Source: Paramecium tetraurelia
Taxonomy: Eukaryota
NCBI GenBank assembly: GCA_000165425.1
Contig: CT868033.1
Coordinates: 1 to 64,000 of the forward strand
Reading direction: 5' to 3'
Length of the DNA: 64,000 nt
Shown: one piece after another, positions 25-23,564 of the stretch
Layout: the number at the start of each line of letters is the position of its first letter
Position numbering within the stretch: the first letter of the stretch is position 1
The notes under the pieces: generated by a model
Database searches by the model: none
What the model saw: only the letters and a program-made list of their open reading frames with translations
Told to the model about the DNA's origin: nothing
Position numbers and translations under genes: made by a program

Positions 25-295
25 CCCCAAACCCAACCCCAACCCCAAACCCAACCCCAAACCCAAACCCAAACCCAACCCCAACCCCAACCCCAACCCC
101 AACCCCAACCCCAACCCCAAAGCCGAACCCAACCCCAAACCGAGGCCCAACCCCAACCCCAACCCCAACCCCAACCCGAACCCCAAAGCCAGACCCCAAA
201 CCCAAACCCAAACCGGAACCCAAGCCCAAACCCAAACCCAAACCCAAAACCCAAACCCAAACCCAAAAGCCGACCCCGGACCCTAACCCAAACGC
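25..295. repeat. Telomeric repeat tract (C4A2/C3A3 mix) with degenerate units
   Basis: Tandem CCCCAA and CCCAAA hexamers, the Paramecium telomere mixture, with the C-rich strand at the 5' end. Variant units (GCCGAA, CCGAGG, CCGGAA, CCCTAA, CGCAAA) are interspersed. Bases 1-24 look like low-quality read end. Confidence 0.95.
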
Positions 296-2088
296 AAAGC
301 TGGGAAGGGGAATTTATCTCTAATATGGGTCTCGAAATATATTCGGTATAGATTATCAGTATATTGCCCATGTGCGTTTCTCTTATGAATTTGCTTGTGA
401 AGGTGACATTTGAGATAAAGAATTTGGAATTGTATTATAATAGAAAAATTAAGTAGTAGTATCGACAAATGGCGGTGACATCCGCGACCCAATTTCGAAA
501 GGATATAGTCTGGGTGTCCACCCATACTCTCGGAAACCGAATCTAATTGCTAATTAACTGTTTATTTCAATAAATGTGACAATTTCAAGTATAAGAATCT
601 TAAAATTTCTAATTATTACATGTCTTAACACTATTTTATCAGGCATACTATGATGGAGTATTAAGAGAATAAACTGTATAAAAACCATAAGTATATTTAT
701 ATTATTGAAGATATTTTCAAAAGCAATTCTTCAAGAATTTTTAATCATATTTAATTTTAATCTTAAAGAAGTAGTTCACTAGTTTAAGATCTTAGGTTTT
801 ATTATTCCCTTTTTCTATTTTGAATAACCTTTGTATCTAAAGTTAAAAAATAATAATATAGAGAATTTATTAAACAAGTTCCTATTTATAATGAAGGATA
901 GAAACTAAAATTAAATGTCGCCAAAATTGATGTATGCAATTTGAAAACTTTATATCACACTTGTTTTGCTTATATTTATGTTGATCACAATCAATTCGTA
1001 AATTTAGACCTAAATACCTTCAGTCAGGGTTTGAGAATCTATCTAAACAAAATTTGCATCCTTATTTTTCCTTATATTGCAGTTCGATGAAATCTATTTA
1101 TTATAAAAATCAAAATCCATATCATTTCCATTTCTCATTACTATAATATTCTCAATTCTGATTAGTCTTCAAAATTGTATATAAATAACAAATTAAAAGT
1201 GAATAATCCCCTATCTTACTTTTACTTGATCGAACCTTTGAGGGCATATTTAAGGGAAATACTTATTTCCTGAAAGTTTATTTAATTCTCAATAATCAAC
1301 AGTTTCATAAATTATATTATTAAATTATATGAAATATTTATTAATTTGATTAAAATCAAATTCACAAAACCGAAACCATGAATAGCTTTGCTTTGTTTTC
1401 AAAATTTAAAAACTTTTATTGGTAATTAAGCCAAAAAAGTTAAGCGAAAATTTAGGAAAACTAGGTTTGCAAAAATGATCTGCATTAACTATATTTAATA
1501 TGTAAAATTCGAACTTGTATATAATCATCAATAGATTAATGATTTGGAAATAAAGTGTAAATTTATAATCGAAGTATCTAATACAATAAGAGAGTTAAGG
1601 AAAAATTCCTTTTTGATTATTAATTAATAATTAAAATAAAACTTTAGAAATAACTGCAAATAGTGATTTATCTTTTTTCTCTTTCCTCAAATAAAATTAA
1701 GCCTCTTTATAACCTGGTTTATTACATACTTCAAACTAATAATTTTTATAAACATCTTTAAGATAATGAAAATTGTTCATATTTTAAAAAGGAGAAAAAA
1801 AAGTTTTCTGGTACCTAAATAAGTATACATCAAAGTTGAAATTCAATTTTAGAATTGCGCTCACCAATTAGGAGAAAAAAGAAAAAATTATGATCAGAGG
1901 GATCTTTATATAAATACATCAATAAATTCTTTGTTTTTCTACTTTATCAAATATTGTTATGTATCATCAATTAAAAATTTGACATCATAACTATTTACTA
2001 TTTAATTAGTAATTAATAAATTTGAATGTTGAGTATAAATAGACAAATATAATAGGAAAGAAATTAATATTTTTTTTATTTATTAATC

Positions 2089-5000
2089 ATGGATTAATAA
2101 GCCAAGAGGATTAATACTTATCTTTTTATGAGTAATGCTGCTTCAGTTTATACATTGCGAAATTATATGTTAAAAAAATTTAAGTAACTGCTCAACAATC
2201 TTAGTCATGGTAAAATTTTGAAAAATGAGGCAAGTAATTTAGATTTGGAGCCTTGTATTAAATTAAGAGGTGGTGGGTGTTGTGGAACAAAAAAAATTCA
2301 TTCTGATATAACATATGGCAATTAAAATTTTGAAGAAAATTTTGCATCCAAATTATAAACTTATACTAATATCATTGTTGAAAAATCGTTAAACTTTCAG
2401 GATAAGATGAATCAAGAAGAAATCCTGGCTGCATTCTAGTGGTTTCACAATCACAAAGAGTAATTTAACATTATTTGTAAGGATGATGCTTTAAACTCGT
2501 AATTTTATGAACTTATAGAAAGGATTGTAGAATAATTGATGAAATAACTGATAATTTTTTTAAAACTCTCTGGGTTCCTATTCTATTTGCTACTCTAAAT
2601 TTGTAATGTTTTATTCAGAATAATATTTTCATATTAATCAAAGAATGAAGAAAGATATATGTAAGCGGAATTACATAAGAGATTTTTAGAATATATTTAA
2701 GAAATCGAATCTTAAATCTAAGTAGAATCGATTAATATTTGGTTTAATGGTGTAGATTTTGAGCTCAAGATGATTAAGACATGTATTGCTCATTGTAGGA
2801 CAAACTCTGAAAAAGGTAAGGAATTAGCCATATCTATTATGTCTGGATTGATCTCATCATTATCTTAATTAAAACCCAGTGATGAATTGATTGACTCTCT
2901 TATAGAAGGAGGTAAGTTTTTACTTTTAAATTTCTATAATAAACAAATCCAAAATCCTTTACAAATTTACGAGATATATTACTTTTTTGAAATTCTGAAA
3001 TGGTCAATAGTAAATCAATTAAAATAGGGCTATTCCGTTTAGAATATCATTAGGCAAATTCAAGATGGATACCAAAAGTATATAAAGCTTTCTAAGGATT
3101 GGATGATACATTATTGTTGGGTTAACTTAATATCTGATCTCATGTGCTATAGACCGATTGTTTAAAAGGATTAATTATCATAACTGATGTAAATTGGAAC
3201 TGCTAATCAAGAAAATTGGAATTAATTATTAAAGTAAAATTAAATAATTTTACTTCCTTATAATAAATTTGCTGGTAAACTAAAAATATTTGGAAACTAA
3301 AATTTTAAAGTTAAAAAATTTGCACCTTTAAAATTATTTTAAGAGTACTTGATTTAGAATTCAAGTGAGATTTAATTATTGCAAGATTATATCAACTTTA
3401 ATTTCAATTGCTAGGCAGATCAATAATTAAATGAAGAGGATCTATTTATCTAATAATTAACGAGTCAATCGAATTTAGAATTAATAAAGGATTTAAACAA
3501 TTATTTAGGATCTCAGAAAGACCAATTAATAAATAATTTCGAATCTGTAAAGTAATAAGTGCTTTAATATAACGCTTAACTCAAAAATAACAAGGTTATA
3601 GAAATCAAAATAATAAAACAGGACATCCATTTTTTAATGAAGTCATTCAAACAAACCAGCAATTTAATTTTATGCTTACTCTAAGAGATAAATTTATTGG
3701 TAAATAAGGAACTCCAAATCAATTCAATTTTCTAAACATTCTTAGAAAGTCTTAATACGATTAATGCCGAATAATTGAATAAAATAAAACAATAAACATT
3801 AACATTAATTTAAGAGATTGAAAATAAACATATAGCAGAGTTTATAGGAAATTTAGATTAGGTAACTGCATTTTGGATACATTTGTCTGAATATACGACA
3901 ATTTAGCACGAAGAATTAATTGAAGGGAACCTAGAATAGGATCAATCGCTTGAAATTTAACTTAATGAAACTATTTAAGTCTTTGCTACCTATTGTCTAA
4001 ACATAGATAAATTTCTGTTATAAGTATCAACTGTGAAGAGAAACTTCTTGAATATTCTAAAATAGCAAAACTACAAAGATTTTTTAAAAGCCCCAATTTC
4101 TCAAAGACATATAGCTGAGGAGATAATCAGGATTTTGTATTCAAAGCTGATAGTGAAATTGGTTAATAAAGTTTAAGGATATTTCTAAAACATGGAAAAG
4201 GTGAAATCAAAAATTGAGGAAGTATAAGATATTCGAAAAGTTCTCAAAATCATTTATACCAGTTTAAATATTCATAAGGGAATAAAAATGATGCTTTGTG
4301 TCCATCAAAAAAAACTGAATACAATATTCCCATAATTTTAAGGGATTTTTTCAAGTAAAGGAGTTCAAGAAGCTGATGGAGAATAATAAAATTAAACAGA
4401 TATCAATGAATAAATTAGAGCATTAATTCTTGACAAGAAAGAGAAGTTATAAATTTTATTTAATAAATATTAAAACACAGAATTCACAAAGGAGCAATAA
4501 AATGATTTTAATAATCTATCATATCAAATTTATAGGGAAATAAACGATATAAAAAAATAGAATTGGAAGGAGCAAATATAAGAACCACTTATATTATTGT
4601 TCTAGGAGGTTAGAATTAAATTAGAAATATTTGGGTTGGTTTAGAAGGAGAGAAATATTATATAATAAGAAATTTTAAAATTGCTGGATAGCTATCTTTA
4701 AGAAATAAATTAAGAAGAAAAGACAGAGGAATTATAATCGTGTTCAAGGGATCCTTAATTACCTTCTTCTAGATAAGAATTACTAAAATTAAATTTAGGA
4801 GATTTGATTGAGTGTGAAAAGTTCATCAAAACATTAGAAGGCTTAATTATGAAATCTCAAAAGCTAAAGAGGATATTCAAATCAAATCTAATTGAAGCTG
4901 CTACTTACAATTAATCAACAAATGTATAGTTATTGAATAAATTAAAAAGTGTATATACATAAAGTTTATATCAAATAATAAGTGATATATCTCAATAAAC

Positions 5001-8000
5001 TCTATAGTTTTGTCAGTAGATAAATAGGAATGAATAAATGATTTTTAGTGAGAATTTTATTGCAAAACTCCAAAAATAACCTTAAATTTAGCAAGTTCAT
5101 GTAAGGATTTAAATATTAAATTTTAATACTCTTTGCATTGAAGATTAAGCTCCATAAAATTAGGATAGAAAAGATGATATAATCTCAACTATGTTTAAGG
5201 AGTTAAAAAAGAGCACCAAGACAAATTAAGAAGTAAGTATTTTTGATATGTTTTAAAATTCTTCATATAAAGCTAGGGAAATCCTTGTATTTAATTTGAT
5301 AAAGATGTAATCCGTAGTTCAAGAAGAAATAATATAAGAGTTTTGCGAAAATTTATTAAAATAAATTTGGATAATTGAAAAACATCCTAGTGTTAGAAGC
5401 TTACTGAAAAATGAGGAAATGATTGTGATGTAGAAGAAACTATTTTCAAAAGATTTACAAAATTTCTCAAATAAGTTAAAAACAGAAATGCAAAATAGAT
5501 TCAAATAAATTGAACAACTTGAAACTCAAATTCTTCTTAGCGATAATTAAGAAGAAATAAAGTTGTAGCTTCAACAAGAATATGAGAATTTTGAAATATA
5601 TTTAGATAATATTACGGATATGTCACAAAGATTAGATATTAGTTTAATGTTTTTAAGAGAAATTAGTAAGGATTTGAAAAACATAAAATCATCAATAGAT
5701 AAGGTATTAACTAGCATAAAAAGTGTGGAGGATGATATAAGAAGATTGAGAGGGAAGAACTTTATGGAATTACTGAGCATGCGAAAATAAAAGGTTTTAA
5801 AATAAAAATAAGAGAATGAACTTGATTAAATTCACATATAGGTTACAACACAAGATTACGATCCTATTTCTGGAAATAAAAAAACGAACAGTAAAGGGGA
5901 GTTCATCACATTCTTAATAAAGAATTAATATGATAATTTTGATGGGGAAGTGAATGAATTTTTATGGAGTGACTAAGAAAAGCAAAAAGATGTTATGTTA
6001 ATAAAAGGGAAAGCAGGTTCTGGTAAGAGTAGAGCTGCACGTAATATCGAAGAATTTATATGGATTTGCGATTCAATAAAACCAAATTGGATCCCTATTT
6101 ATTTATCTCTTCCATCCTTAAAAGACCCACATCATAATTTGATAGATTAGGCTCTTGAATCTGAAATTTACAACTTTGATAATATACAAATAAGAGAGTT
6201 CAAGGATGCTGTCATCAATGGAAACTTAAAGATTGTAGTGATTCTTGAAAGTTATGACGAAATGAAAATTGATTGCATTGGAACTAATCTTTATCATACA
6301 AATAGATTGGTTTAAGATCTTAATCTTTAGGCATCAGGACAAACAGTTAAAATGATTATAACGACAAGAGAAGAAATTTTGAATTAAATAGGATATTAAA
6401 CATGGTTTTATGGTCAAAGCATAGAAACACTTAAAGAAATTGAGATATTGCCTTTTAGTTAGGAACAGAGTTCACAATATATAAAAATATATGCTGAAAT
6501 AAGTGTTAAGAGAACTATTAAAAGATTTTATGAGTTTCTCAAATAATTGAAAGGTTAAGTAATTTCACTAGATGAGTTTAAGTAAATATGGAGTTAAATA
6601 GAGAATACAATTAATTCAATTATAATGTAGAAATAAAATTCTGAAGTGTTGTTTTAGACATAGGATGTGGATAAATTGATATTAAAGATTTAAGCAGTAG
6701 AGTTTTTTAATTTTATAAAATCAAATTAGATGGTATCATTAAAAAAGGAGTTATTGTAACTTTGGGGAGAGTAGAAATTCTCTTAAGTAATTAATAACGT
6801 CAACATCAATCATCTACTGACAACTCCATTTATGATGGAAATAATTGTTTATGTGTTACCTAAAATGTCATAATTTTTCTCGCAATCTAACTTAATAAGA
6901 GATTTACTAAAGAAAAATTTTATGGTTTTGAAAAGAGAGGCTAAGAAATCAGAGGTAGTGATTGAAGAATATTAAACAAGGTAAAATAAGAATTCAGAAG
7001 ATTTGAATCAATTAAATGTAAAGAAAGAGAAAAAAAATTTAGAATCAGAAATACTGGAATAATTTAATTTAATTATGGAAGACTTGGACAGTTAAAACTT
7101 TTTCGAGTAGTTTTCTATAGCCAACTCTCTAGAATATATCAATAATAATACTATCTTTTCAAGCAGATTTTTTAAAGTGAGGTATGATGCAAATTTTATT
7201 GTTTCAGCCTTTAGGTTAAACTAATTTACTGCTTTCGATTTTTATGAAATATTTGTTAACTTTTATCATAATTAACAATTACAAAAATTGAAGGACTTGG
7301 GAAAAAGTATAAAACTAGAAAGTGTTCTATTGGACTTATAAGATTTTTCAATATTTTTAGCTATAGATATGTCTCAGAGATAAATTACCCAAGTGAATTA
7401 TAAATCAAAAGGGAAACTATACATTAAGTAAGCTGAGGAAGAAAGGAAAGTTGAGGTCTCTTGGGAAGACTCATATTTCAGTGATAATTAAGATGATTTT
7501 GAGTACAAGACTCTATTACGCAAGTGTATGTTGATTAATTCAAAGGGCAGTATATATTCATTTAATCATAAATCCATTTAAGAGTTTTTTGTTGCCAAAT
7601 ACATCTTAAACTTGATTGAGAGACTCTTCAACAATGAATCACAAAGTGTGGATCAAACTGTGTTATAAAGCAGTAGTTTTAATAAGGATTAATTCAACCT
7701 ATCTTTGGATCATTACTCTGGAACTTTGGAAATATTAAAACCTAAATTGAAATAGATCGGAGAGATTAAACAGAAATTAATTCAGATAATCTAATTGTCA
7801 AAGATTGAATCTAAGAAAAAATTTTTAAGGTCAGCTTCAAATTCACTCTACATTATAAGTTCATTGAGGGAGCATTTTGATGGCATCGATTTTAGTAACA
7901 TCTAGATAGAGGATACTAAATTGAATGGCATAAGTTTCTATTAGTGTAATTTAAACAATACCTGCTTTAATAACGTTTCAATTGATTCATGTAATTTTAA

Positions 8001-11000
8001 TTGTGCAAAAATATAGAATGCTGTTTGGGAAAAACTGATTTGCAAAGAGAAACCCTCATTATCAGGTCACAACTCGAAGATAACTTAGGTTGTGTTTAGT
8101 GATGATGGAACCACCTTATTATCAGGTAGTTAGGATGGAACTCTTAATATCTGGTAGGTTTATGCTGACGAAGAGCCAAAGAGAGCAGACCTTCCAAATA
8201 ATGATAAATTAATTACAATATCGAAGGGTAAAAATTTGCTTGCCTGTCTCTCAGAGAATAATGTATATTTCTATAATCCACATAATTTGACGTAATTGAG
8301 ATTTGAAGCTTTGGTTAATGATAATTACGGTGATGTTATTTTGTCTCCAAACGATGAATGGTTAGCCGCATAGGTGAAATAAGGACAGGTACACTTATGG
8401 AAAATTGAAAATCTCGAAAAACCAATATAAAATTAAAGATACATTTCTAAGGAAAATGATAAGGGATAAATTAATTGCATTGCAATTTCTTCTAATTATT
8501 AACTCTTAGCAACATGTGGTAAGCAAATAACTCTATGGAATTGTAATAAAATATCAGACATTCAGGAAATTGCAGAGCTTCCAGCATAATCCAAGAATAT
8601 TTTCGGAGTTGCTTTTTCAAAAGATAATGAAATCTTAGTAACTGGGGGAGAAAATAAATAGCTTAAATTTTGGAACATTAAAGATTTAACTAATGTTTAG
8701 CTGCTTTATTCATTTGATTAATAAGAGATCATAATGCAAGTATCTTATTCATATGATGGAAAAATGCTAGCTGCAAGAACCTAATCATCAATTAAATTGT
8801 ATGAGGTTGACAAGCTGCTAGAATAATAGGACTTTTTTAAATTACTTCCTCAATGTCATTTTAAGATAATTGAGATATCTTCTGATTGCTAGATATTAAC
8901 TTCTGCTGAATATTAAACATCTTATTAAAATAACAGCAAAGCTAAAATATATGTTTGGGATATTAAAAACTTTCATTAAATTTAAATGATTCATACATTA
9001 GAGGAACACACTTAAAATATTTTATGTTTAAAAATTACAAATGATAACAAAGTTTTAGGTTCAAGTAGCGTAGATCAGACTATTTGTTTATGGGATTTAA
9101 CCAAATACAGCTTAATTATAAAATTAGAAGCACACACTAAAAAGGTCTCTAATATTGCTTTTTCATTTGATGGCAGATAAATGGTATCTAACGGTGATGA
9201 TAAAACAATCATTTTTTGGGATATCACCAAAATAGATTAGCCTCAAATTTAAACGAAAATATAATAATCAACGGATACAAAAATCATTGCTTTTTGTCCA
9301 TTCAAATCAATTATGGTGTCATTAGCAGGTCCAACTTCAAAAGGGATCCAATTTTGGAATACAGTTGAATTTACACAAATTCCTTTCGAACCAATCTTAG
9401 ATTATTTCTTAGATGTAAGTTTTCGGAAAGATGGTAATGCTATGGTTACATTGAGTAAGAATATTGGAATAAGGATTTGGAAAATAAATGAACAATCCTT
9501 CTAAATTGAGAAGAAAATTCCTCTAATAAATCTTTAATATTTACAAAGAGGGTTTTATTTAGATGATGAAAACTTTATAATACAGAATAATATTGACGTG
9601 ATTCAATTGTAAATTCAAAATGAAGAAATCAAATACACTTCTAAATTACTTTTCTCTCGGAATGCCTATGGAATGTCAGTAGCATCAAATTCTAAGTTTG
9701 TTGTAATTGGAAGCATAAAAGGTCTTGAGATTGTGGTTAGGGAAAATCAGAATAGTCCAAATTAAATTTCTTCAGAAAGCAACATTTAATACAGAGGCTT
9801 TTAATTTTCTCTTGATTCCTCTCTTATTTCTGCAGTATTTGAGAAAGGATTTGTTATTTAAAATATCGAAACCAAGTAAAGAGTAAAGAATTTTGAAGAA
9901 AAGAATAATTGCTTATCTGTTGGTTTTGTTAGCAATGAAAGAGTGATTGTTGGAACAGATACACTTGGAGGATAACTAATTTTATACGACATCAAAGATT
10001 GGTAATAAATAACAAAGTTGTCGGTCATCTAATTACCTAGATCCCCTTATAAAATCACTTTTTTAGAATAGAGACAATAAATTTGTGTATATAGTTATTA
10101 CCATATCATTTTACTCAATTTATAAAAATTAGACTTAATCTAATTGATTTAGATTAATAAAGGTAAAAAATCAGGAGAAGCTATTTTCAATTCGGATTAG
10201 TCATTTTTTGGTGTGGGTTTAGATAATCGTATTTATTTTCAATCTTTATCAGATATACTTATTTTGGATAAAATTTTTACATTAACCCAACCGAATTATT
10301 TGTATAAAAACTTTTCATAGAATAGTGAGTTTTTTTCGGCTATCTCAAAAGATTCAATATATTATTAATATGAATTAAATAAAAACTAGATTGCCAAATA
10401 AACTAATCTGAATTTAGCAAATTTGGAATTTGCTACTTTAAATCCCTAAGAATCGCAATTGGTTGCAATTCAGAATGCGCCGAATTAAAAATGGCGATAA
10501 AAATTATCGATGATTGACCTTGAAACGTAAAAAACAATATCATGCTTTGAAGAGATCGATGAAGAAAAATTTGTATGCTTAAAAGCGATCTTTTCTGAAG
10601 ATGGCTTAAATTTTGTATCATGCTATTTAGACTTAACAATTAAATTGTGGGATGCTAAATCTTGCAAATTGTTATCCATGTTTAAAAGTGATACTGCTAG
10701 CATTGATTTTCTTAGAATATCTTCAAAAGGGATATTAGCTTAGACAAGCAAAGAAGTCATAAAGTTGTGGAACTTGATAGCATTAAAACAGTAATAATTT
10801 GAAATGGATGGTCACACTGATTCAGTTAATTAATTGTGTATCTCCTCAGATGGTTTCTAATTGGTTACAGGATCTAATGTTGAAATCATAAGGTGGGATT
10901 TGATAGAACTAAGAAAAATTGATGTATTATTAACAGGTAAAAGACTTCCATCGTCATTTTGTTTTTCTACTAACTGTTAATATTTTGCTGCTCAAGATGA

Positions 11001-12546
11001 TAAACAATTAATCCACATATGGAAATTAAATACAAAATTCATGATTGAAAATCATTATCAATAATTTTGTATTATTTAAGACAAAGTTGCTTTTAGTTTA
11101 GATCAAACACAACTTATATGGAAGCATAGTAATTCATAAATATTCATCTTGAATTTAGAGCAGGTATTTAGATCAAAATAACTAATATCATAACCTAGAT
11201 TTAGTCCTGAATCAAGGTCAATTACGATTAATTCAAATATTCTTGTAAAAACAAATCCATTTGAATTAATTTTAACAAGCAATAACTCTGAATTAAAGAA
11301 TGAAGATATGGTGGGAATATAAGTTAGTTAAACAACAACAATTGCCATATGTCATGTTAATTAGAGATTAGCTCTTGAAGATCAAAATTAATCAATCATC
11401 ATATGGTCACTAGAAAGAAAATAGACAGAATCTATTTTGCAGCATTCCTCTTTGAAAAATAATAAAATTTTATCAATGGCCTTTTCTGGGAATGGTTAGA
11501 TTTTGTACTCTTGCCATACGAATGAAGTAATCAAATATTGGAATGTAACTGATAAATTTGCTTTGATTAAATCAGAAGAACTTAAAACTGTAAATAATGT
11601 TGATAGAAAAATATTACTTTTGTACATATTCCCACTGAAAGAAGAGGAATTCATAGCTGTATGGTATGAAGAAAGTTAAGTTTGGGTGGATGCTTAGGTA
11701 AATCAGATTGTGGTTTAAACCAAAGAAGTTGTAGTATTGGATGAAGCTATCAACTATCCTTTATCATCATCAAACTTCATAGCTGGGTATAATGAAGCCA
11801 AGAATTTAGTCGCAGTCTAATATAAGGCTAATCTAAAGATATATGATGTATCATAGTAAAAAGCAAAAGTTATTGTAGTTTTGGAAGGTAATTATCTTGA
11901 AAAATAGCCTCGTTCTTCAATACTCCAATTTTCAGAAGATGGGAATCACTTACTAGCATTAGGAATTAATCATACCCTAAGGTTTTGGGATATTTCTGAT
12001 TAAAATAAGATTGTGTAAAAAATTAATTAGTCAAAATTAGTTGAAACACTTGCCTTTGCTTTTATAAACTCATCAACAATCAGGATTTTTAGTAAATCTG
12101 GGGAAATAATTGATGAAAACATTTCTGAATATACATAAACAGGAGTAATCGAAGAGGGTACTTAATTTGATTTTGATAAAGCAAACATTTAATTAGGAGT
12201 ATATTTTTTTTTTGGAAAGTTTGATCAAAGAACTTTATATATTATGGATGCTTAAACTAATGAAATAAAATATACTTTGAATTAGTTTAGTTCTCAAATT
12301 AAATAGTTATAATTTGCATCATCTGGAGAAAAATTCATACTTGGTATGGAAGATGGGTCAATTTTGTTATATATGATTGATTCTAAAACATTAAAAAATT
12401 ATGAAAACCCAATTTGCTATTATACGTTTGCAAAAAGTCCTCTCTTGTAGGCCAGTTGCTGTAACATTTAATAATCAAGATTTCAAACTATTGAAAATGA
12501 AAATTTTGAAAAGCTATTATTGACTGAAAAGGGAGCTATCAAATGA
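2089..12546 (+). CDS. Giant NACHT/STAND NTPase - pentapeptide repeat - WD40 repeat protein (NLR-like), ~3,485 aa, apparently intronless
   Basis: Code-6 frame +1 from ATG 2089 (alternatives 2128, 2167) to TGA 12544-12546; all motifs checked are in one frame. LRGGGCCG at 2263-2286; Walker A GKAGSGKS 6007-6030; Walker B ILESYDEM 6241-6264; sensor IITTR ~6355; LLTTPFMMEI ~6815; winged-helix FNHKSIQEFFVAKY 7561-7602; pentapeptide block ~7830-8043; many WD40 repeats ~8060-12400. Confidence 0.9.
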
Positions 12547-13719
12547 ATATGTTATTTAAGTAATATATATTATATTAATTGAATAATTTGCATTTATAAT
12601 TACTATTTATCATTATTGTTAGTCAAAATCTTATTTTTTCCTATAATTCAGCTAGAAAATGCTAATAATGAAAATTTAGTACATAGGATGTTACCTGAAT
12701 GTATTTAGATTATAAATTAATCATAAATGTATCTTTTAAAAAGGATGTTACTTCCAGCTCCGAAATGGAAGGTATTCTAAATGTTTGAGACTAAGCTCAA
12801 TATTTATTATAATATAGAAACTAAACATTGATTCTTTGATTTCGAAAGTCAATTTACAGGTTCTAAACTCTCCTTGGAGTCGGAGAGCTAATAATCTTTT
12901 CCGTTTTTTTTCGCTCTTCTCCCGATAAGATAAAATCTTAACTATTCCTATTATTTTTTCTTCTATTGTGGATTCCTGTGGTGTTTACTTTTCCGCAACT
13001 TATATAATTTTTCTTCCCTCTGATGCTTCAATGTAAAGGGATCAATCTTGTTATATTAATTGAATTTCTCTTCTTTCCAGCAATTCTTATAAATACTTAT
13101 ATAAGAAGTAGTAAGTTGGCGATTTACTGGTTGATGACGAAGGGAACTTTTCCTAATTTTGTATAAACATCCTACAAGATAACATCTCCATTAGGGTCTT
13201 TATATCCATTTTGATAAATTCTGATTTTGTAAACTGATTAATTTCAAATTATCCTAAAATCTTATAAAAACTTTTTCGAAAAACACTCTTGCCAATGTAG
13301 CAAATATGTTCTGAATAGAAAATTTATTAAAATTATCCTGGAAATCTAATCATTTTTTGTAGTTCTTCGGAACAAATAATCATCACTCTAATAATATTTC
13401 TTTAACACTACCCCTTCCAAAGCATAATTTAAAAACAAATTATTTATTTGAAGTTAAATAAAAATGAACCAAACTTCTGTGTATTAATTCAATTTCTAAT
13501 TCTAAAGAAACTAGTAAATTATAAGATAGTATCCCTTAATAATTTCATTATGATGATTTGATTTTTCAAATGTTCTTCTTTAATCTTTGATTGTCATCTA
13601 AATTAGTTTAAAATTAGAAGATTGAAATCTCTTTATATATAATGTTTAAATTCAATTATAATAAGGATTTATGACATATTCCAAAGGAACCATAATAGGT
13701 AATCTATCTTTAATCTACA

Positions 13720-15300
13720 TATGTTATATTCTACCTTAATTGCAATCATCTTCAATTTGTTTTGAAATATTTAAATTAAGGATTCATCTCAGATCAGTGC
13801 TAATTTTGCAAATTGTAATTTGTAATTTGATTGGATCTAAATTAGAAGCTGAAGATGTGAGTGGAATGAATTTGAATAGAGCATAATTATTTAATTGTAA
13901 GTGGAATAACATAAAAATACCTGAGCTAAATAAGTTAGAAGGCCAATACAGCGGTGCTAGTTCAATCTGTATCTCTCCTGATAGTAATACGCTCGTAACT
14001 GGTTATTCAAATGGGTCTATTTGTTTATGGGATCTTAAGACAGTATAATAAAAAGCAAAATTAGACGCCCATAATAGTTGTGTAAGTTCATTCTGTTTCT
14101 CTCCTTATGGAACTATATTGGCATCAAGTAATTATTATGAGACTATTCGATTATGGTGTACAAAAACAAGAAAAGTTATATTAAAATTATAAGGACGGAG
14201 TCTATTTGGTATTTCCTTATGCTTTTCTCCAAATGGCACTACATTAGGGTGGGGTACAAGTAGTGTCTGTTCAGTGTGCTACTCTCACCTGATAGTACTA
14301 CATTAGCATCTGGCAGTGCAGATCAGTCTATCCGTATATGTGATGTAAAGATAAGAGAATAAACAGTAAAATAAGATGGTCATAGTGATAGTGCGAATTC
14401 AATATGCTTCTCATCTGATGCTACTATATTAGCAACATGTAGCTACGATGCCTCTATCCGTATATTGGATGTTAACACAGGGTAGTAAAAAGCAAAATTA
14501 AATGGTCATATTAATAGTATTAATTCAGTTTGTTTCTCTCCAAATGTTAATATTTTGCAACTGGTATTACAGATAACTCTATCCATTTATATTAGTGATC
14601 AAACATGATAATTTAAAACAATATTAAATAGTTATAATGATACTGTCCGATCAGTATGCCTTTCTCCTGATGGTATTACAATAGCTCCTGGTAACTTTGA
14701 TAATTCTATTCGCTTATGGGATGTTATGACAGGAAAATAAAAAGCACAATTCAATGGTCATGGTTGGACTGTCACTTCATTATGCTATTCTCCTAATGAT
14801 ACTACATTAGCATCCGGCGGTGGAGATAAGACTATCTATATATCGGATTTATAGACAGGGCAATAGAAAGCTAAAATAAATGGTCATAAAAATTGTGTCA
14901 TTTAAGTATGTTTCTCTCCTAGTGCTACTAAATTAGCTATGATGCCTCTATCCGTTTATGGAAAGTTAATACAGGTCAATAAAAAGCAGAATTAAATTCT
15001 CACATTCATTGCGTCTATTCAGTATGCTTACTTTCTGATGGTATCTGTGGTAAATGAAGACAATATTTATAGTTTGGATGTTAAAGAGATTTCTGTATTG
15101 GGAAAATAATATCAAGATACTCCTATCTAAGTTAAAAATCACTTTTAAAAAATCTTTTATTATTTAACAAAACGTATATATTTTTTTCATTGACTATTTA
15201 GCTCCCTCTAATATCTTCTTAGGACAATTCAATTATTATGGAGAAGAGTTAAGATCTTTCTTCAAATCTAAAGGAAGTTTAATTTTGAATAACTAAATAG
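13720..15300 (+). pseudogene. Decayed pentapeptide + WD40 repeat gene (SIRLWDVKTGQQKAKLDGH-type, 42-aa repeats)
   Basis: Reads SANFANCNL..GMNLNRAQLFNCKW, then repeats of SI(R/C)LWD..TGQQKAKL.GH..V.SVCFSP.G.TLASG. Exact 126-nt register at 14342/14468/14720/14846. Disruptions: 7-nt duplication 13823-13829, indels at ~14285, ~14555 and ~14935, in-frame TGA 14606-14608. Family-type tail FFKSKGSLIL at ~15260-15290. Confidence 0.85.
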
Positions 15301-17119
15301 AGTTTAAATAGTAAGAAAATTGATTATGTTAAAATATATCGCCATATAAATATTTTTATTTAAGAGACTGAATTAATTAATAATAAATGTATAATAATAT
15401 TTTTCGTTCCTCTTGTAATTCTGCTCTCCTTCTTCTCAAAACAATTATTCAATGTTAAACATCTTATTAACAATTTTTCACTATCAACAAAATTGATCCT
15501 TTAGAGAGGTTCTGATTTCTTAGATCTATAATATCTCAATTTGTTTCACAACTAAATATGCAATAAGAGATGTGATGTTATCAACAACTCAAATATAAAC
15601 CTCGCATTGCAACATGAGCTTCATAGGAAAGATATTTATTTCTGTAAATCTTTTAATGTTTTGAAGAAGTTTGAATATGAAAAATATTTAAAAAATGGAA
15701 AGTATAAATATTCAAAACCAATTTTACATTCATTGATGTTTCAGCAAACAATTAAAAGTGTATGTATTATAGAGAAACTTATGATAAAGCTATCTGTAAA
15801 AATAGACCAGCCATTGAAACAATATAAGATTGTAAAAGTATACTACTCTAACTATTGAGAAGTTTCAAAAACTTATACTTATATTGTTGGTGCTAATTGC
15901 GCGAATAAAGCTGTATGTGATATTTACGATAATGCAGTAAATAAATCAGCAGTGTTGTGAGCTATGATATACTGAACGAATAATTGATATTTATATGATG
16001 TACAAAAGGTTCCATTCTGGATGTTTCGAGTAAATGTTATGGAATAACTACGGCAGTATTTAGAGCTGCATCTTGTTCAGAAGAAATATAATGGTAAGTT
16101 GCTGAGTCAATGAAATTATCCGCTATAGAAACAATTCATTTTATGTTTCTTATTTTATTACCTCTTAGATTATATAATTTATAATGAAGACTAAGAGAAT
16201 ATCTTAAAGGAAATTTTAATTCTTTAACCTGTTTCCTTATAATCATTTTAATTCTTTAGAAATGTAAATAAATTAATGGAGAGCCTAGCCAAGAATAAAT
16301 TGGAAACATGAGTAATTTTTGAATAATTAGATCTAAACTTTTAAAGACAAAGCAGAAAAGGCGAATAATATTATAGCTTCTCCAAATACAAATACATGGG
16401 GTATAGGAGTATACGATCTCTTGAAGATAATGATTCAACCAATAAATAACCTATGGTTAATTTGAATAAGGTTATCACATGAGTACCATAGAGCTTCATT
16501 GGAAAGTTGACAGAGTTGCGGAAATTGGGTAAATACAAATCAGAGATTTAAAAACGAAAAGGAGTTATTATTATAATTGAAATTAGCATAGGTCAAACCA
16601 GATATAAAGTCAATCAGTTTGATATGATGAGGAGAAAAAATATGGATGAGGTTTATCAATCATAATAGTGCAGTCGCTTGATTTCCAACTGCTTATTATT
16701 ACATTTTTTAGGATAATAAAGTAAATTTTTCGTATTTAAGATTTTTTTATTTATTGTTTTGAAGAATATTTTTTCAATTATAGCATTTTTGTGTTTTAAT
16801 GGATAAATATATTTTTTATTTTTAAATAAACTCTTTTTCCATTCCGAATCAATCTGTCTTTGACGATACAAATATTCCCAATAGATTCTCCTCATTGGGA
16901 GTCCTAATCTGGGCTATTCAAATTTACATTTCATAACAACCTCATCCAAATTTCATATAGATTTTGGCTTGATCTAACCCAATTTATTGCTGTATATTGT
17001 TTAAATAATATAATAATTATTAATTAATTTTGTAATGCAATTTTCTGTAATAGAAATATATAAAAAGAGGAACATAAAATAAAAATGCATGAATAATTTT
17101 TATTTTTTGTTAAGCTTTT

Positions 17120-19859
17120 ATGCACTTTTAAGGTTAAATTAACAACAAAAACATAGAAGGAATGATAAAATAGCTTAAATTTAGTAAAATTAAAACTAGA
17201 ACTAATATTTAAATTAAAAAGAATATTGCTATTAAGACTAGTCGAATAACTAAATTGTAGGCTTAAAGCATATTGAACTCTACATCTTAAACTTCGAAAA
17301 AGAAATAAGATTAAAAGGAATTCTTTGAGTAGGAAAATCTAAAATACATCGAAGAATTAATATAAGAGAGATCTTCAGATGACAATAAATTATAAGTTGT
17401 TCATTAGAATAGATTTGTAATGAATGTAAATACAAAGAATTAAATCGAAAAAGCTTTAGATTAGTATGATTTGCCTCTTTAGTAAAATCCTAATAATGAA
17501 CTTTATTGTAATGGCAAAAGTAAGGATAAAGAGTATTTTAATAGCCTTCACTCTAGAAAAAATGAATAAATTAGAAGAAGATTTAGAACATAACGACTCA
17601 CTTTTTCTAAAAAATCTGTAAATTTCAGAATCTTATAATAAAAAAGGTAAGCCTTTTAAGATCTTGATACTTAGGGTTGTCTTTAATTGAAACTGAAACA
17701 TATAAAGAAGCTTTATCTTATTTTAATTCTGCTATCGAAGAAGACCCTAATAATTCAGAATATTATCATAACAAAGGCATATATAATATTCAACCCTTTA
17801 GCGGCGACTTTAATTCTACTGAATAGACTAGATGAAGCACTTCAATATTTCGATTTAGCCCTTTAGCTAAACCCTGAAAATTCTCTTAATTATAATAACA
17901 TAGGTATCTTTTAACGTGCATATTTCCTTAGGGTTTATTTTATGTAAAATGAATAGATTTGAATTAGCATTATATTATTTTGATTAAGCTATTCAACTAA
18001 AAAACCCTTATCTTTAAAGTTTTTCTTAAAATAAAGGTAAAATTCAATATTGATACTTTTAGCTTTTGCTTTATAATAACTGAATAGATATTAAGAAGCA
18101 TTAGATTCTTATGGCTCATAGATATCAGAATCTACAGAATATAATAATAATAAAGGTATGATCTATCATTTCATTAAGTTTAGCATTTACATTAATGCAA
18201 ATGAATAGGTTAGAAGAATCATTACAATGTTATGACTCAGCTATTTAACAAAGCCCAGATAGTTCAATTTTGTATAATAATAAAGGTGTATTTTTGAACA
18301 TCATCATACTTAGGATTGTCTTTATTCCGTATGAAAAGATATGAAGAAGCATTATAATATTATAATTTAGCAAAATAGTTAAACCCAAAAATTGCAGAAT
18401 ATGATTCTAACATAGGTATAGGCTATCATCTAATCATATTTAGCATCTGCATTAGAAAGAATTAATAGGTTTGAAGAAGCACTACAATATTATGACTCAG
18501 CTATACAAAAAAACCAAGAAAATTCCCAATTTTATAATAGCAAAGGTATATTTTAGATGTATAATATGTTAGCAAACACTTTAATGTAAATGAAAAAATT
18601 TTAAGAAGCATTACACTATTACGATTTAGCTATTCAAATAAATCCAGAAAATGCAGATTATTTTCATAACAAAGGTATTCATTAACATTCAACTGTTGAG
18701 CAAATACTTTATAATAAATGAATAGATTAGAAGATGCATTAGAGTATCACGATTTAGCTATTCAAATAAATCCAGAAAATGCAGAATTTTTTCATAAAAA
18801 AGGTATTCATTAACACACAACTGCTTAGCAATGACGTTATACTAAATGAATAGATTAGAAACAGCATTAGAATATTTTGATTTGGCTATTCAGAAAAACC
18901 CTTAAAATCAACTTTATTATTATAACAAAGGTATATTAAATATCCAAATTTAATTAGCTTTTACTTTATTTAAGTTGAATAGAAATGAAGAAGCGCTATA
19001 ATAGTTTGATTTTTCCATTTAAAGTAATCCTGAAAATCCTATCTCTTTTAATGGCAGAGGTTGAATTTTTTTTGAATATTTTCTCAGCGATGGCGCTAAC
19101 TTAAATGAATAGAGAAGAAGAATCATTAGAATTCTATGATCTAGCTATTTAGAGAAATCCTGAAGATTCTAGAAATTATAATAACAAAGGTAAAATGAAT
19201 TAAGCATATTTAGCTTTTACTTTAGATAAAATGTCGAGATTTGAAGAAGCGTTATAATATTACGATTAAGCAATTTTAAGAAACCCTGAAAAGAGCATCT
19301 ATTATAATAACAAAGGTAAGTAAACACTTCATATTTCTTAGCTATTACTTTACATAAAATGAATCTATTTAAAGAAGCATTATAATATTATGATTTAGCT
19401 ATTTAGAGAGACGCTGAAAATGCCGCCTTTTATAATCACAAAGGTTTAATTGAATCAGCATATTATCTTAGCGCTTAGTTTATATAAAATGAATCTATTT
19501 GAAGAAGCTTTATAAATTATGATTTAGCTATTTAGAGAAATCCTGAAAATGCTAATTATTATAATAACAAAGGTATTATTGTCGCTCCATAATTTCTTAG
19601 CTTAGGCTTTACGCAGATTGAATAGATTTCAAGAAGCATTATAATATTATGATTTAGCCATCTCAAAAAACCCAGATGATCCAGAATTTTACGAAAACAA
19701 AGGTAAAATTGGATTTCATTTTATTTAGCGGTTACTTTACAATAAATGAATATCATTGAAAAAGCATTAAAATATTAAGATTTAGCTAATTATCACCAAA
19801 GGAACAACTAAAATGACTCCTCATCATAAATTTTCATTATTTATATTTAATATGAATGA
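17120..19859 (+). CDS. TPR-repeat protein, ~18 TPRs, one repeat per exon; one 1-nt deletion near the 3' end
   Basis: Consensus A.TL..MNR.EEAL.YYDLAIQ.NPEN..YYNNK. 18 phase-1 introns: 17520-17544, 17647-17674, 17777-17801, 17904-17931, 18037-18062, 18156-18183, 18286-18313, 18416-18443, 18546-18572, 18675-18700, 18803-18828, 18931-18957, 19060-19087, 19190-19213, 19316-19341, 19444-19471, 19573-19600, 19703-19728. Start ATG 17120 or 17162; TGA 19857-19859. Confidence 0.9.
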
Positions 19860-21950: not shown

Positions 21951-22916
21951 CTCTATTTATTTTCTCCCATATCCTAACTTTTTATTGTTTTTTGCCAAAA
22001 TCCTTAATCCTATTTAATCAACTCGCAATCTATTTTTCTTGAGCATATGATCCACCACAAATGTTTCATCAATGAAATATCATAACATAATTTAGTTAAA
22101 CTTTAAACAATTAATTCGATTTTGATATCAATTTTACAGAATTGATTGATGTAGATATTCTGTGGAATTTTAAAATATGTTTAAAATGGTCCTAGTATTA
22201 TCTAGAATTATATTTAAATGATTTTTGAATAATTGCAATTTAAAACAAAATTGTTTTTCTTGTAAATTCAAATTATTATAAATTTCTCTATTTAAATAAT
22301 TTCTATTTAAATAACCTACTTTTATTTCAAAATCTTTTGTTGAAAATAATAATATTTGATAGGTTGGTGTTTTCTCAATTCAATATATATAACATTAAAT
22401 TAGAATTTTATTTCCTAAGAAACCTAATAACAGTTTAGATTATATATCATAATTTATTTAAAAATGATAAAAGCCTATCTTACCAGCTTAACTTTCGAGT
22501 TGCTAAGTTAGCAATGCGTAGAATTATCAAAAAATGAGATCAATTATAATGGATAATATACTTAGATCTGATAGAGCAATCTTTGTAATAAATTATTTGC
22601 AAGTGAATCTAATTTAGTGTTTATTAAATCTTTATTTGATGAATATTATATATCCTTATGATTTGCTTCACATAAAAATCAATTTTAATTAGAAATGCTG
22701 AGATTTTTTCAAAATCCAATTACTAAAATTTAAAAATTAGTTAAACTATACATAGAATTTACTTTTATTTTTGGATTGTATTTAGCCTTGAGTTTTATTT
22801 GTCAAAATTGCTTTTGAAGATATAATATGATATAAACTAAAAAGTTATTTTTTCTTTTATTTCTTCATCTCAATGTCAAAGCTGTCCCTAGCTTTCCTTT
22901 TGTAACGATTATAATT

Positions 22917-23065
22917 NNNNNNNNNNNNNNNNNNNNNNNNNNNNNNNNNNNNNNNNNNNNNNNNNNNNNNNNNNNNNNNNNNNNNNNNNNNNNNNNNNNN
23001 NNNNNNNNNNNNNNNNNNNNNNNNNNNNNNNNNNNNNNNNNNNNNNNNNNNNNNNNNNNNNNNNN
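22917..23065. other. Assembly gap (149 N)
   Basis: Run of N. Confidence 1.
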
Positions 23066-23564
23066 AATAATCATAATCTCGCCTGCTTGATAATAAAAAA
23101 AAATAAATATCCAAACAGTTTTCTCACAACTTTTGTCTCAAACCCTGGATCAAAATAAAATTAATAATATGTTAATTAGATTTCCAAAAGATAGCTAAAT
23201 CAGTATAATTTATAGCTCTTTTTGCTCTTTTCATTTAAAAATTTAATTAGGTAAGGAAAAGTTGTAGATTCAGAATTTTTAAATAACGGATAAATAATTA
23301 TGAAAATATAATTATCAAAGATACTTGATAAAATACTTTATTATGCATTGTTATCTATTTTAGGTATTTATTTTTAGTCTATATCAATATTCATTCTTGA
23401 TTTCTATAATTTAAAGTTATGATTATACTGTCTCAAGCTAAGCTCCATAAAACCAATCATAAGAATAATAAACCAAGAATTTTAGATTATTTTAAATTTG
23501 TTTTAGAATCTAATCAGCTGAGAATTAGTTGAAATGAGATTCAGTGCAATTAATAACTATAAAA

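What the first reader, a model, noticed from the sequence alone, without database searches (positions are those of the whole stretch)
17520..19728. One-TPR-per-exon gene: 102-nt symmetric phase-1 exon cassettes
Seen: all 18 introns interrupt the same codon of the repeat after its first nucleotide. Of 17 internal exons, 14 are exactly 102 nt (34 aa); the others are 105, 93 and 101 nt. Any in-frame cassette can be duplicated, deleted, shuffled or skipped without frameshift. Known analogue: Tetrahymena LRR genes with 90-nt exons. Inference: an exon-cassette diversification system for TPR binding surfaces.
Basis: partly seen in the sequence, partly recalled or inferred. Interest (0 to 1): 0.7.

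Follow-up and report, generated by a model that had tools for sequence, protein, structure and literature searches.

The report
Paramecium TPR gene, one repeat per exon
A ciliate (Paramecium-type) gene encodes about 19 TPR protein-binding repeats, each on its own 102-base exon separated by tiny introns at the same codon; it looks like an old array built by copying an exon-plus-intron unit, of a kind already seen in ciliates and brown algae, not an active shuffling device.

Summary
On the + strand, 17420-19859, 18 introns of 24-28 nt cut a TPR gene at the same codon (TPR position 8), always after its first base. Of 17 internal exons, 14 are 102 nt; the others are 105, 93 and 101 nt. The DNA reads like Paramecium macronuclear DNA: telomere repeats at 26-298, TAA/TAG read as Gln, 25% GC.

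The 'exon-cassette diversification system' is not supported. Units are 58-85% identical in DNA and most introns are randomised. Only units 10 and 11 are a clear recent copy, exon and intron both 85%. This fits tandem duplication of a ~128-nt exon+intron unit. The window holds no spare cassettes. [quoted passage not shown]

The gene carries damage: a 1-nt deletion in the 101-nt exon and one GC 5' splice site.

The kind is on record:
- Tetrahymena 90-bp LRR exon arrays.
- Ectocarpus TPR exons.
- P. tetraurelia 'TPR coding exons', each with a germline IES.

Verdict: a new member of a known kind, of modest interest.

The parts
17420..19859 (+). TPR gene: 19 exons, 18 introns, about 19 TPR units. 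The 5' limit is uncertain. The stop at 19857-19859 is reached only if the frameshift in exon 17 is compensated.
   Evidence: Spliced translation under table 6. A unit HMM gives 20 rows, equal to 19 units, between 17438 and 19814. Pfam TPR_1 scores 54.1 bits against a cut-off of 27.8.
17420..17519 (+). Exon 1 (100 nt if ATG 17420 is the start). It encodes the end of a first TPR-like unit. Other in-frame ATGs lie at 17162 and 17120, and an upstream in-frame TGA at 17090.
17520..17544 (+). Intron 1, 25 nt, GTA..TAG, phase 1
17545..17646 (+). Exon 2, 102 nt, degenerate TPR unit
17647..17674 (+). Intron 2, 28 nt, GTA..TAG
17675..17776 (+). Exon 3, 102 nt
17777..17801 (+). Intron 3, 25 nt, with a non-canonical GC at its 5' end (GCA..TAG). 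Left unspliced, the ORF ends at 120 aa.
17802..17903 (+). Exon 4, 102 nt
17904..17931 (+). Intron 4, 28 nt
17932..18036 (+). Exon 5, 105 nt (one extra codon)
18037..18062 (+). Intron 5, 26 nt
18063..18155 (+). Exon 6, 93 nt (three codons short)
18156..18183 (+). Intron 6, 28 nt
18184..18285 (+). Exon 7, 102 nt
18286..18313 (+). Intron 7, 28 nt (GTG..TAG)
18314..18415 (+). Exon 8, 102 nt
18416..18443 (+). Intron 8, 28 nt
18444..18545 (+). Exon 9, 102 nt
18546..18572 (+). Intron 9, 27 nt: a multiple of 3 with no in-frame TGA, so retention would add 9 residues in frame
18573..18674 (+). Exon 10, 102 nt; 85% identical to exon 11
18675..18700 (+). Intron 10, 26 nt, ends GAG; 85% identical to intron 11
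18701..18802 (+). Exon 11, 102 nt; recent copy of unit 10
18803..18828 (+). Intron 11, 26 nt
18829..18930 (+). Exon 12, 102 nt
18931..18957 (+). Intron 12, 27 nt, a multiple of 3 with no in-frame stop
18958..19059 (+). Exon 13, 102 nt
19060..19087 (+). Intron 13, 28 nt (GTT..CAG)
19088..19189 (+). Exon 14, 102 nt
19190..19213 (+). Intron 14, 24 nt, a multiple of 3 with no in-frame stop
19214..19315 (+). Exon 15, 102 nt
19316..19341 (+). Intron 15, 26 nt
19342..19443 (+). Exon 16, 102 nt; 84% identical to exon 17
19444..19471 (+). Intron 16, 28 nt (GTT..TAG)
19472..19572 (+). Exon 17, 101 nt. A 1-nt deletion near 19516, relative to exon 16, shifts the frame.
   Evidence: The alignment shows the deletion. 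The HMM match is split into 19471-19515 and 19518-19571.
19573..19600 (+). Intron 17, 28 nt. Retaining it would restore the frame (661-aa ORF). A second AG at 19605 would do the same (650 aa).
19601..19702 (+). Exon 18, 102 nt. With canonical splicing the shifted frame stops at TGA 19619-19621 (581-aa product).
19703..19728 (+). Intron 18, 26 nt
19729..19859 (+). Last exon: a final degenerate TPR unit, a short tail, and TGA at 19857-19859 in the repeat frame

Best explanation
This is a subtelomeric macronuclear gene of a Paramecium-type ciliate. It encodes a TPR-only scaffold protein of about 19 tandem 34-residue repeats.

The array grew by repeated tandem duplication of one ~128-nt DNA unit, a 102-nt exon plus its ~26-nt intron. 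The likely mechanism is unequal crossing-over in the germline nucleus. Every copy therefore inherited the intron at the same codon (TPR position 8) and in the same phase. That explains the uniform 102-nt, phase 1-1 exons without any selection for 'cassettes'.

Most copies are old. The exons are held by weak purifying selection on the TPR fold, while the intron interiors have drifted to near-random. One duplication (units 10 and 11) is recent.

The gene is now partly damaged: a frameshift in exon 17, and one GC and two non-TAG splice ends. It may be on the way to becoming a pseudogene.

Shown: the anatomy, TPR identity, co-duplication of one exon+intron, and relatives in the P. aurelia group. 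Inferred: that the introns are spliced, unequal crossing-over as the mechanism, and the protein-binding role.
For: Organism type:
- CCCAAA-type telomere repeats at 26-298 and 21-37% GC across the window.
- The frame is open only with TAA/TAG read as Gln.
- Introns are 24-28 nt, within the 18-33 nt quoted for P. tetraurelia (PMC8997360 passages).
- The best relatives are P. tetraurelia and P. octaurelia TPR proteins. P0002 (GSPATT00011674001) scores 246 bits at 48% identity over 10 stretches.

TPR identity:
- Pfam TPR_1 gives 54.1 bits against a cut-off of 27.8 on two exons read through a stopless 27-nt intron.
- 19 units are found by an HMM built from the gene's own exons.

Duplication of exon plus intron:
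- TRF finds period 128-130 with 10.4 copies.
- Exons 10/11 are 85% identical and so are introns 10/11.
- Exon similarity and flanking-intron similarity correlate: Mantel r=0.24, p=0.017 and 0.024.

Age of the array:
- The other exon pairs are 58-84% identical.
- Intron pair identity averages 0.619 against 0.591 for shuffled interiors.
- Mean pS is 0.50 against pN 0.31 over the 14 units of 102 nt.

Same intron position in relatives: three annotated Paramecium proteins carry 8-9-residue inserts exactly at the K|A junction. Each begins with G and ends in I or L, as a retained 3n GT..TAG phase-1 intron would read (P0002, P0008, P0023).

Literature:
- Unequal crossing-over is the mechanism proposed for the Tetrahymena 90-bp LRR exon arrays (PMC6564038 passages).
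Against: - There is no RNA evidence that any of the 18 introns is spliced.
- Apart from the 10/11 pair, intron sequences are barely above a shuffled null: 3 of 153 pairs exceed its 99th percentile. For most units, common descent of the introns therefore rests on position and phase alone.
- Without the 10/11 pair, the correlation between exon and downstream-intron similarity falls to 0.14.
- The recent pair 10/11 differs more at non-synonymous than synonymous sites (pN 0.16, pS 0.09). The changes are few, and the pattern fits relaxed or diversifying selection equally well.
- Units of this gene are no closer to each other than to units of five other Paramecium genes: mean identity 0.46 within, 0.47 between, and only 15 of 44 units have their best match in their own gene. 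In-place expansion of this particular gene is therefore not shown for most units.
- No genome was available to test family-wide structure.
Confidence: 0.72

Rival explanations
1. Active exon-cassette diversification. The symmetric 102-nt exons would be used to produce many TPR surfaces, by exon skipping or alternative splicing, or by frequent recombination among cassettes.
For: - 16 of 17 internal exons are multiples of 3 with phase 1 on both sides, so any of them could be dropped or doubled in frame.
- The most variable unit positions are 2, 5, 23 and 29, which correspond to TPR positions 9, 12, 30 and 2. From recall, not from a call, several of these lie on the ligand-binding face of helix A.
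- The recent pair 10/11 has pN above pS.
- The locus is subtelomeric, as are the young Tetrahymena LRR arrays.
- Ectocarpus authors proposed such a system for exon-encoded TPRs (PMC3341825 passages).
Against: [quoted passage not shown] - Skipping one exon would need a ~155-nt intron, in an organism whose introns are quoted as 18-33 nt.
- No reserve or inactivated cassettes are found on either strand of the 64 kb.
- Only one clearly recent duplication is seen.
- An intronless 102-nt tandem repeat would be just as free to expand in frame.
Confidence: 0.07
2. A decaying pseudogene. The array is a relic no longer under selection, and its regularity is only inherited structure.
For: - A 1-nt deletion in exon 17 leads to TGA at 19619-19621 with canonical splicing.
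- Intron 3 begins with GC, and introns 10 and 13 end in GAG and CAG.
- Three 3n introns have no stop. This class is reported as counter-selected in Paramecium (passage).
- pN/pS is about 0.6 overall.
- The annotated P. tetraurelia relative P0002 also has one unit read out of frame.
Against: - The spliced frame stays free of TGA for 581 codons.
- The other two length variants are in-frame, at 105 and 93 nt.
- TPR core residues are kept in nearly all units.
- The frameshift lies near the 3' end and would still leave about 16 intact repeats. It can also be bypassed by retaining the 28-nt intron 17 or by using the AG at 19605.
- The deletion could be an assembly error.
Confidence: 0.3
3. Parallel intron gain. 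Introns were inserted independently into each pre-existing repeat at a recurring proto-splice site (AAAG|G).
For: - 14 of 18 exons end in AAAG, an AG|G-type site.
- Most intron interiors show no detectable homology to each other.
Against: - It needs 18 independent insertions at the same nucleotide.
- Introns 10 and 11 are 85% identical and lie in units whose exons are also 85% identical, which shows that introns travel with the unit.
- Three distant Paramecium relatives show the same junction.
Confidence: 0.03

Closest known systems
Paramecium tetraurelia TPR-motif gene family, rich in IESs (Vitali et al. 2019, PMC6771405; passages and Fig. 8 legend read)
   Same: - Same genus-level sequence family. 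The best hits are P. tetraurelia and P. octaurelia TPR proteins with the same unit consensus.
- The paper's legend speaks of 'TPR coding exons', so an exon-per-repeat layout has already been drawn.
- The paper states that the function of these proteins in Paramecium is unknown.
   Different: [quoted passage not shown] Those passages do not state the 102-nt length or the uniform phase 1.
- Whether this gene has an IES in each unit cannot be seen in macronuclear DNA.
Tetrahymena LRR genes with arrays of exactly 90-bp exons (Xiong et al. 2019, PMC6564038; passages read)
   Same: - A ciliate; one fixed exon length repeated in tandem; one intron phase throughout.
- Subtelomeric location.
- Origin ascribed to clonal expansion of an exon/intron unit by unequal crossing-over.
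- The older ('group II') arrays have lost nucleotide-level similarity, as most units have here.
   Different: - LRR rather than TPR; 90 bp rather than 102; phase 2 rather than phase 1.
- Thousands of genes are involved and retrotransposons are implicated.
- Intron lengths there are given as about 56, 122 and 257 bp, against 24-28 nt here.
- That paper says P. tetraurelia LRR genes lack such a peak. In the passages I read, TPR appears only as one of seven domains common in species-specific genes.
Ectocarpus NB-ARC-TPR genes with one TPR per exon (Zambounis et al. 2012, PMC3341825; abstract and passages read)
   Same: - Each TPR is encoded by its own exon, in repetitive arrays.
- An exon-shuffling and diversification hypothesis has already been proposed.
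- Pseudogenes and damaged exons are common.
   Different: - The exons there are 126 nt (TPR plus linker), with 102-nt versions regarded as truncated.
- The repeats are attached to an NB-ARC domain.
- Inactivated exons sit in long introns.
- None of these features is present here.

Membership tests
Tetratricopeptide repeat (Pfam TPR_1, PF00515) | Sequence match above Pfam's gathering score | tested here: met
   54.1 bits against a cut-off of 27.8, E 9.9e-15, on the contiguous translation 18443-18673. Of four single exons scanned, one gave a sub-threshold TPR_11 match (17.2 bits against a cut-off of 26.8) and three gave none.
Tetratricopeptide repeat (Pfam TPR_1, PF00515) | Tandem array of 34-residue units with conserved small and hydrophobic core positions | tested here: met
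   19 units are found. The unit consensus is AxTLxxMNRxEEALQYYDLAIQxNPENSxxYNNK, with two invariant Leu. The mapping to canonical positions 8, 11, 20, 24, 27 and 32 is from recall.
Paramecium-type spliceosomal introns | Length 18-33 nt, with the first three and last three bases constrained (GTA..TAG) | tested here: met
   Lengths are 24-28 nt. 14 of 18 begin GTA and 16 of 18 end TAG; one starts GC. The reference values come from PMC8997360 passages.
Paramecium-type spliceosomal introns | Removal restores one open reading frame | tested here: met
   The frame is open through 16 junctions. Retention of any of the 13 non-3n introns upstream of the frameshift truncates the ORF.
Paramecium-type spliceosomal introns | Spliced out of the mRNA | not testable with these tools
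   No transcript data are held.
Exon-per-repeat arrays of the Tetrahymena 90-bp LRR kind | Arrays of at least 3 consecutive exons of one exact length | tested here: met
   There are runs of 3 (exons 2-4) and 10 (exons 7-16) exons of 102 nt.
Exon-per-repeat arrays of the Tetrahymena 90-bp LRR kind | Extreme bias to one intron phase | tested here: met
   18 of 18 introns are in phase 1 in the repeat register. The phase is 2 in Tetrahymena.
Exon-per-repeat arrays of the Tetrahymena 90-bp LRR kind | Genome-wide peak of that exon length, with variable exon number among close paralogues | not testable with these tools
   No genome is held. Five Paramecium relatives show 4-13 units at protein level, but they are distant.
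Ectocarpus-type exon shuffling loci | Inactivated or spare repeat exons in introns or on the other strand | tested here: not met
   The HMM scan of all six frames of the 64 kb finds units only in the gene itself. The two other rows score below 0 bits.
Ectocarpus-type exon shuffling loci | NB-ARC (STAND NTPase) domain fused to the TPR array | tested here: not met
   Upstream ORFs 15289-15855 and 16650-17162 have no Pfam match. The N-terminal parts of relatives find nothing upstream. A P-loop/WD40 giant ORF lies 5 kb away, but it is a separate gene.
P. tetraurelia IES-rich TPR gene family | An IES at the 5' end of each TPR exon in the germline | not testable with these tools
   This needs micronuclear DNA. 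A TA lies at exon offset 10-11 in 18 of 18 exons, but it is the usual TTA/CTA Leu codon. My own reading of the exon sequences, not a scripted count, puts the other invariant Leu at xTA in 17 of 18 as well.

The most novel reading that the evidence does not exclude
Paramecium TPR genes would be a second, independent ciliate case of clonally expanded exon-per-repeat arrays: 102 nt and phase 1, against Tetrahymena's 90-bp phase-2 LRR exons. Published work places an IES at the 5' end of each TPR exon in the germline. The choice or failure of IES boundaries during macronuclear development could therefore drop or retain whole exon+intron cassettes in frame. That would give somatic, environment-sensitive variation of TPR binding surfaces.
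Probability: 0.06. Interest if true: 0.75.

Novelty: new member of a known kind. Interest (0 to 1): 0.3.

Why it matters
If the layout holds across the family, it gives a clean second example in ciliates of how copying a single exon+intron unit fixes exon length and intron phase. This example is in a different repeat class and in an organism with about the shortest introns known. It would let intron drift, the persistence of 3n introns and the birth and death of repeats be dated within one gene.

It also links to the published observation that Paramecium TPR genes are the densest carriers of germline IESs. The biological role of these TPR proteins remains unknown. On its own, this locus is an ordinary member of that family.

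Tried and rejected
- Whole-genome search for paralogues and an exon-length histogram: no genome is held.
- Word-indexed protein search with the 77-residue contiguous translation, lengths 'longer': 42 candidates, none significant.
- Second word-indexed search with the TPR part of P0002: 976 hits at E<=1e-20 among 8000 candidates scored. In the 120 listed, prokaryotic or unnamed TPR proteins dominate. Only three named Paramecium proteins (P0002, P0008, P0160) and one Blepharisma protein appear, so the search was of little use for family structure.
- Metagenome scan for related loci: 26 loci at 28-54% identity. In the 5 AT-rich ones I scanned, every unit lies in a single frame without intron-like breaks, so none looks like a ciliate relative. 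The other 21 were not scanned.
- Earlier-findings look-ups by place, by sequence and by words: nothing found.
- tblastn of the N-terminal non-TPR parts of five relatives against the window: only weak hits to the TPR array itself. This gene appears to be TPR-only.
- The idea that the invariant TA at exon offset 10-11 marks IES sites: rejected as evidence, because it is explained by Leu codon bias.
- A two-unit (254-nt) higher-order repeat reported by TRF: the exon identity matrix does not clearly favour i/i+2 over i/i+1 pairs, so I make no claim from it.
- Literature searches for an explicit description of 102-nt phase-1 TPR exons in Paramecium: none found in the held library. The closest is the Fig. 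8E legend of PMC6771405. Its figure and supplements were not seen.
Full report
**What the DNA is.** The window is AT-rich, 21-37% GC in 2-kb steps and about 25% around the finding. It opens with 45 copies of a CCCAAA-type repeat at 26-298. Long frames exist only when TAA and TAG are read as sense codons (table 6). Together with interruptions of 24-28 nt bounded by GTA..TAG, this is the signature of Paramecium macronuclear DNA. The best protein relatives are indeed from P. tetraurelia and P. octaurelia. The gene lies about 17 kb from a chromosome end.

**Checking the observation.** I located the interruptions by pattern and tabulated exons and introns. There are 18 introns, listed under parts, of 24-28 nt and mean 26.8. 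The 17 internal exons measure 102 ×3, 105, 93, 102 ×10, 101 and 102 nt.

My first model, with ATG at 17511 and intron 1 removed, gave a frame full of stops. The repeat frame in fact runs upstream of intron 1 and holds a further partial TPR. Intron 1 is therefore also phase 1, and the start lies at ATG 17420, 17162 or 17120, with an in-frame TGA at 17090.

With the introns removed, the frame is open across 16 successive junctions. Retaining any one of the 13 non-3n introns before the frameshift ends the ORF early. Each exon encodes 34 residues. Pfam TPR_1 matches at 54.1 bits against a cut-off of 27.8, and places the split codon at model position 8. An HMM made from the 14 units of 102 nt finds 19 units in the gene and nothing else in the six frames of the 64 kb. 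TRF reports the array at period 128-130, that is exon plus intron.

- Exon 17 (101 nt) has a 1-nt deletion near 19516 relative to exon 16.
- With canonical splicing the ORF then stops at TGA 19619-19621, giving 581 aa from ATG 17420.
- Retaining the 28-nt intron 17 gives a 661-aa ORF ending at TGA 19857-19859. Using a second AG at 19605 gives 650 aa.
- Intron 3 starts with GC, intron 10 ends GAG and intron 13 ends CAG.
- Introns 9, 12 and 14 are multiples of three without an in-frame TGA. A passage of PMC8997360 describes this class as counter-selected in Paramecium.

**How the array arose.** Exon pairs are mostly 58-79% identical in DNA. Exons 10/11 are 85% identical and exons 16/17 are 84%. 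Introns 10 and 11 are also 85% identical, so at least this unit was copied as DNA, exon and intron together.

For the rest, intron interiors are almost randomised. Mean pair identity is 0.619 against 0.591 for interiors shuffled between fixed ends, and 3 of 153 pairs exceed the null's 99th percentile. Exon similarity and flanking-intron similarity correlate weakly: Mantel r=0.24, with p=0.017 for the downstream intron and p=0.024 for the upstream intron. For the downstream intron, r falls to 0.14 without the 10/11 pair.

Over the 14 equal-length units, mean pS is 0.50 and pN 0.31. The young pair 10/11 has pS 0.09 and pN 0.16, on few changes.

The simplest account is an old array built by tandem duplication of a ~128-nt exon+intron unit, with one recent addition. 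Uniform length and phase then follow by inheritance. Independent gain of 18 introns at one nucleotide is far less economical, and the 10/11 pair contradicts it.

**Relatives.** A full HMMER scan with the 77-residue contiguous translation (exon 9, stopless intron 9, exon 10) found 14,045 proteins at E<=0.001, as expected for TPRs. The top hit, P0002, is P. tetraurelia GSPATT00011674001. Scoring all returned proteins with the unit HMM singles out five Paramecium proteins: P0002, P0008, P0023, P0104 and P0150.

In their annotated sequences the units abut at 34-residue spacing. The exceptions are three inserts of 8-9 residues exactly between the K that ends one unit and the A/G that starts the next. 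Each insert starts with G and ends in I or L, which is what a retained 24- or 27-nt GT..TAG phase-1 intron would encode. This is indirect evidence that family members share the intron position. P0002 also contains one unit read out of frame, followed by such an insert. That mirrors exon 17 and intron 17 here.

At protein level, units of the window gene are no closer to each other (0.46) than to units of those genes (0.47). Only 15 of 44 units find their best match strictly in their own gene. The sample is too distant to show either conserved order or mosaicism.

No genomic DNA of relatives could be obtained: no genome is held, and the metagenome loci are uninterrupted TPR genes.

**The 'diversification system'.** The arithmetic is right but follows from the origin. 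An intronless 102-nt repeat would expand and contract in frame just as freely.

Against an active mechanism:
- The window holds no spare cassettes, and the introns are too short to hold any.
[quoted passage not shown] In favour are only general features: subtelomeric position, variable residues at positions that (from recall) face the ligand, and pN above pS in one young pair.

**What is already known.**
- The Tetrahymena analogue is real: thousands of LRR genes with exactly 90-bp exons and more than 96% phase-2 introns, ascribed to clonal expansion by unequal crossing-over (PMC6564038 passages).
- Ectocarpus NB-ARC-TPR genes encode each TPR on a 126-nt exon, and an exon-shuffling immunity hypothesis was proposed for them (PMC3341825 abstract and passages).
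- For Paramecium itself, Arnaiz et al. noted that multi-copy IESs correspond to expansion or recombination of TPR and WD40 repeats (PMC3464196 passage).
[quoted passage not shown] 8 legend).

The exon-per-TPR layout in Paramecium has therefore been seen. I found no explicit statement of the 102-nt, phase 1-1 rule in four searches. That covers only the held library, and I did not see the figure or the supplements.

**Most novel reading left open.** If each germline unit also carries an IES, alternative IES boundary choice or retention could remove or disrupt whole units during macronuclear development. Nothing in macronuclear DNA tests this. The TA present in 18 of 18 exons at offset 10-11 is simply the preferred Leu codon.

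**Context.** The neighbours are also repeat-protein genes: an uninterrupted 3,506-codon ORF with a P-loop motif and large WD40 arrays at 2026-12546, and WD40 pieces at 13626-15190. This chromosome end therefore carries the same domain classes that are enriched among fast-evolving Tetrahymena genes.

**Verdict.** The description is accurate. The gene is best read as an old tandem array of an exon+intron unit in a Paramecium TPR gene, slightly damaged. It is a new member of a known kind, and the evidence does not support an active cassette system.

Noticed in passing
window 26-298: 45 copies of a CCCAAA-type hexamer (82% matches): a macronuclear telomere, so the window starts at a chromosome end.
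   Followed up: partly
window 2026-12546 (+): One uninterrupted 3,506-codon ORF under table 6, with a P-loop motif followed by very large WD40/beta-propeller arrays (Pfam WD40 182 bits). It looks like a STAND-type NTPase-WD40 giant. It has no intron in 10.5 kb, against 18 introns in 2.4 kb in the TPR gene.
   Followed up: partly
window 13626-15190 (+): WD40 repeat pieces in two overlapping reading frames (Pfam WD40 54.7 and 66.4 bits). This is either a WD40 gene with introns or a frameshifted one.
   Followed up: no
window about 22916-23065: A run of N (an assembly gap) shows as about 50 X in the translation of 22643-23419.
   Followed up: no
window 18546-18572, 18931-18957, 19190-19213: Three introns whose length is a multiple of 3 and which have no in-frame TGA. 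Retention would insert 8-9 residues in frame and escape nonsense-mediated decay. Similar inserts appear in the annotated P. tetraurelia relatives P0002, P0008 and P0023.
   Followed up: partly
P0002 residues 565-607 (P. tetraurelia GSPATT00011674001): The annotated protein reads one TPR unit out of frame and returns to frame through an insert at the unit junction. This is the same pattern as exon 17 plus intron 17 in the window. It suggests that damaged units, or gene models that paper over them, are common in this family.
   Followed up: no
window 15200-17400: About 2.2 kb between the WD40 gene and the TPR gene has no recognisable domain in its long ORFs. From recall, this is long for a Paramecium intergenic region.
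   Followed up: no
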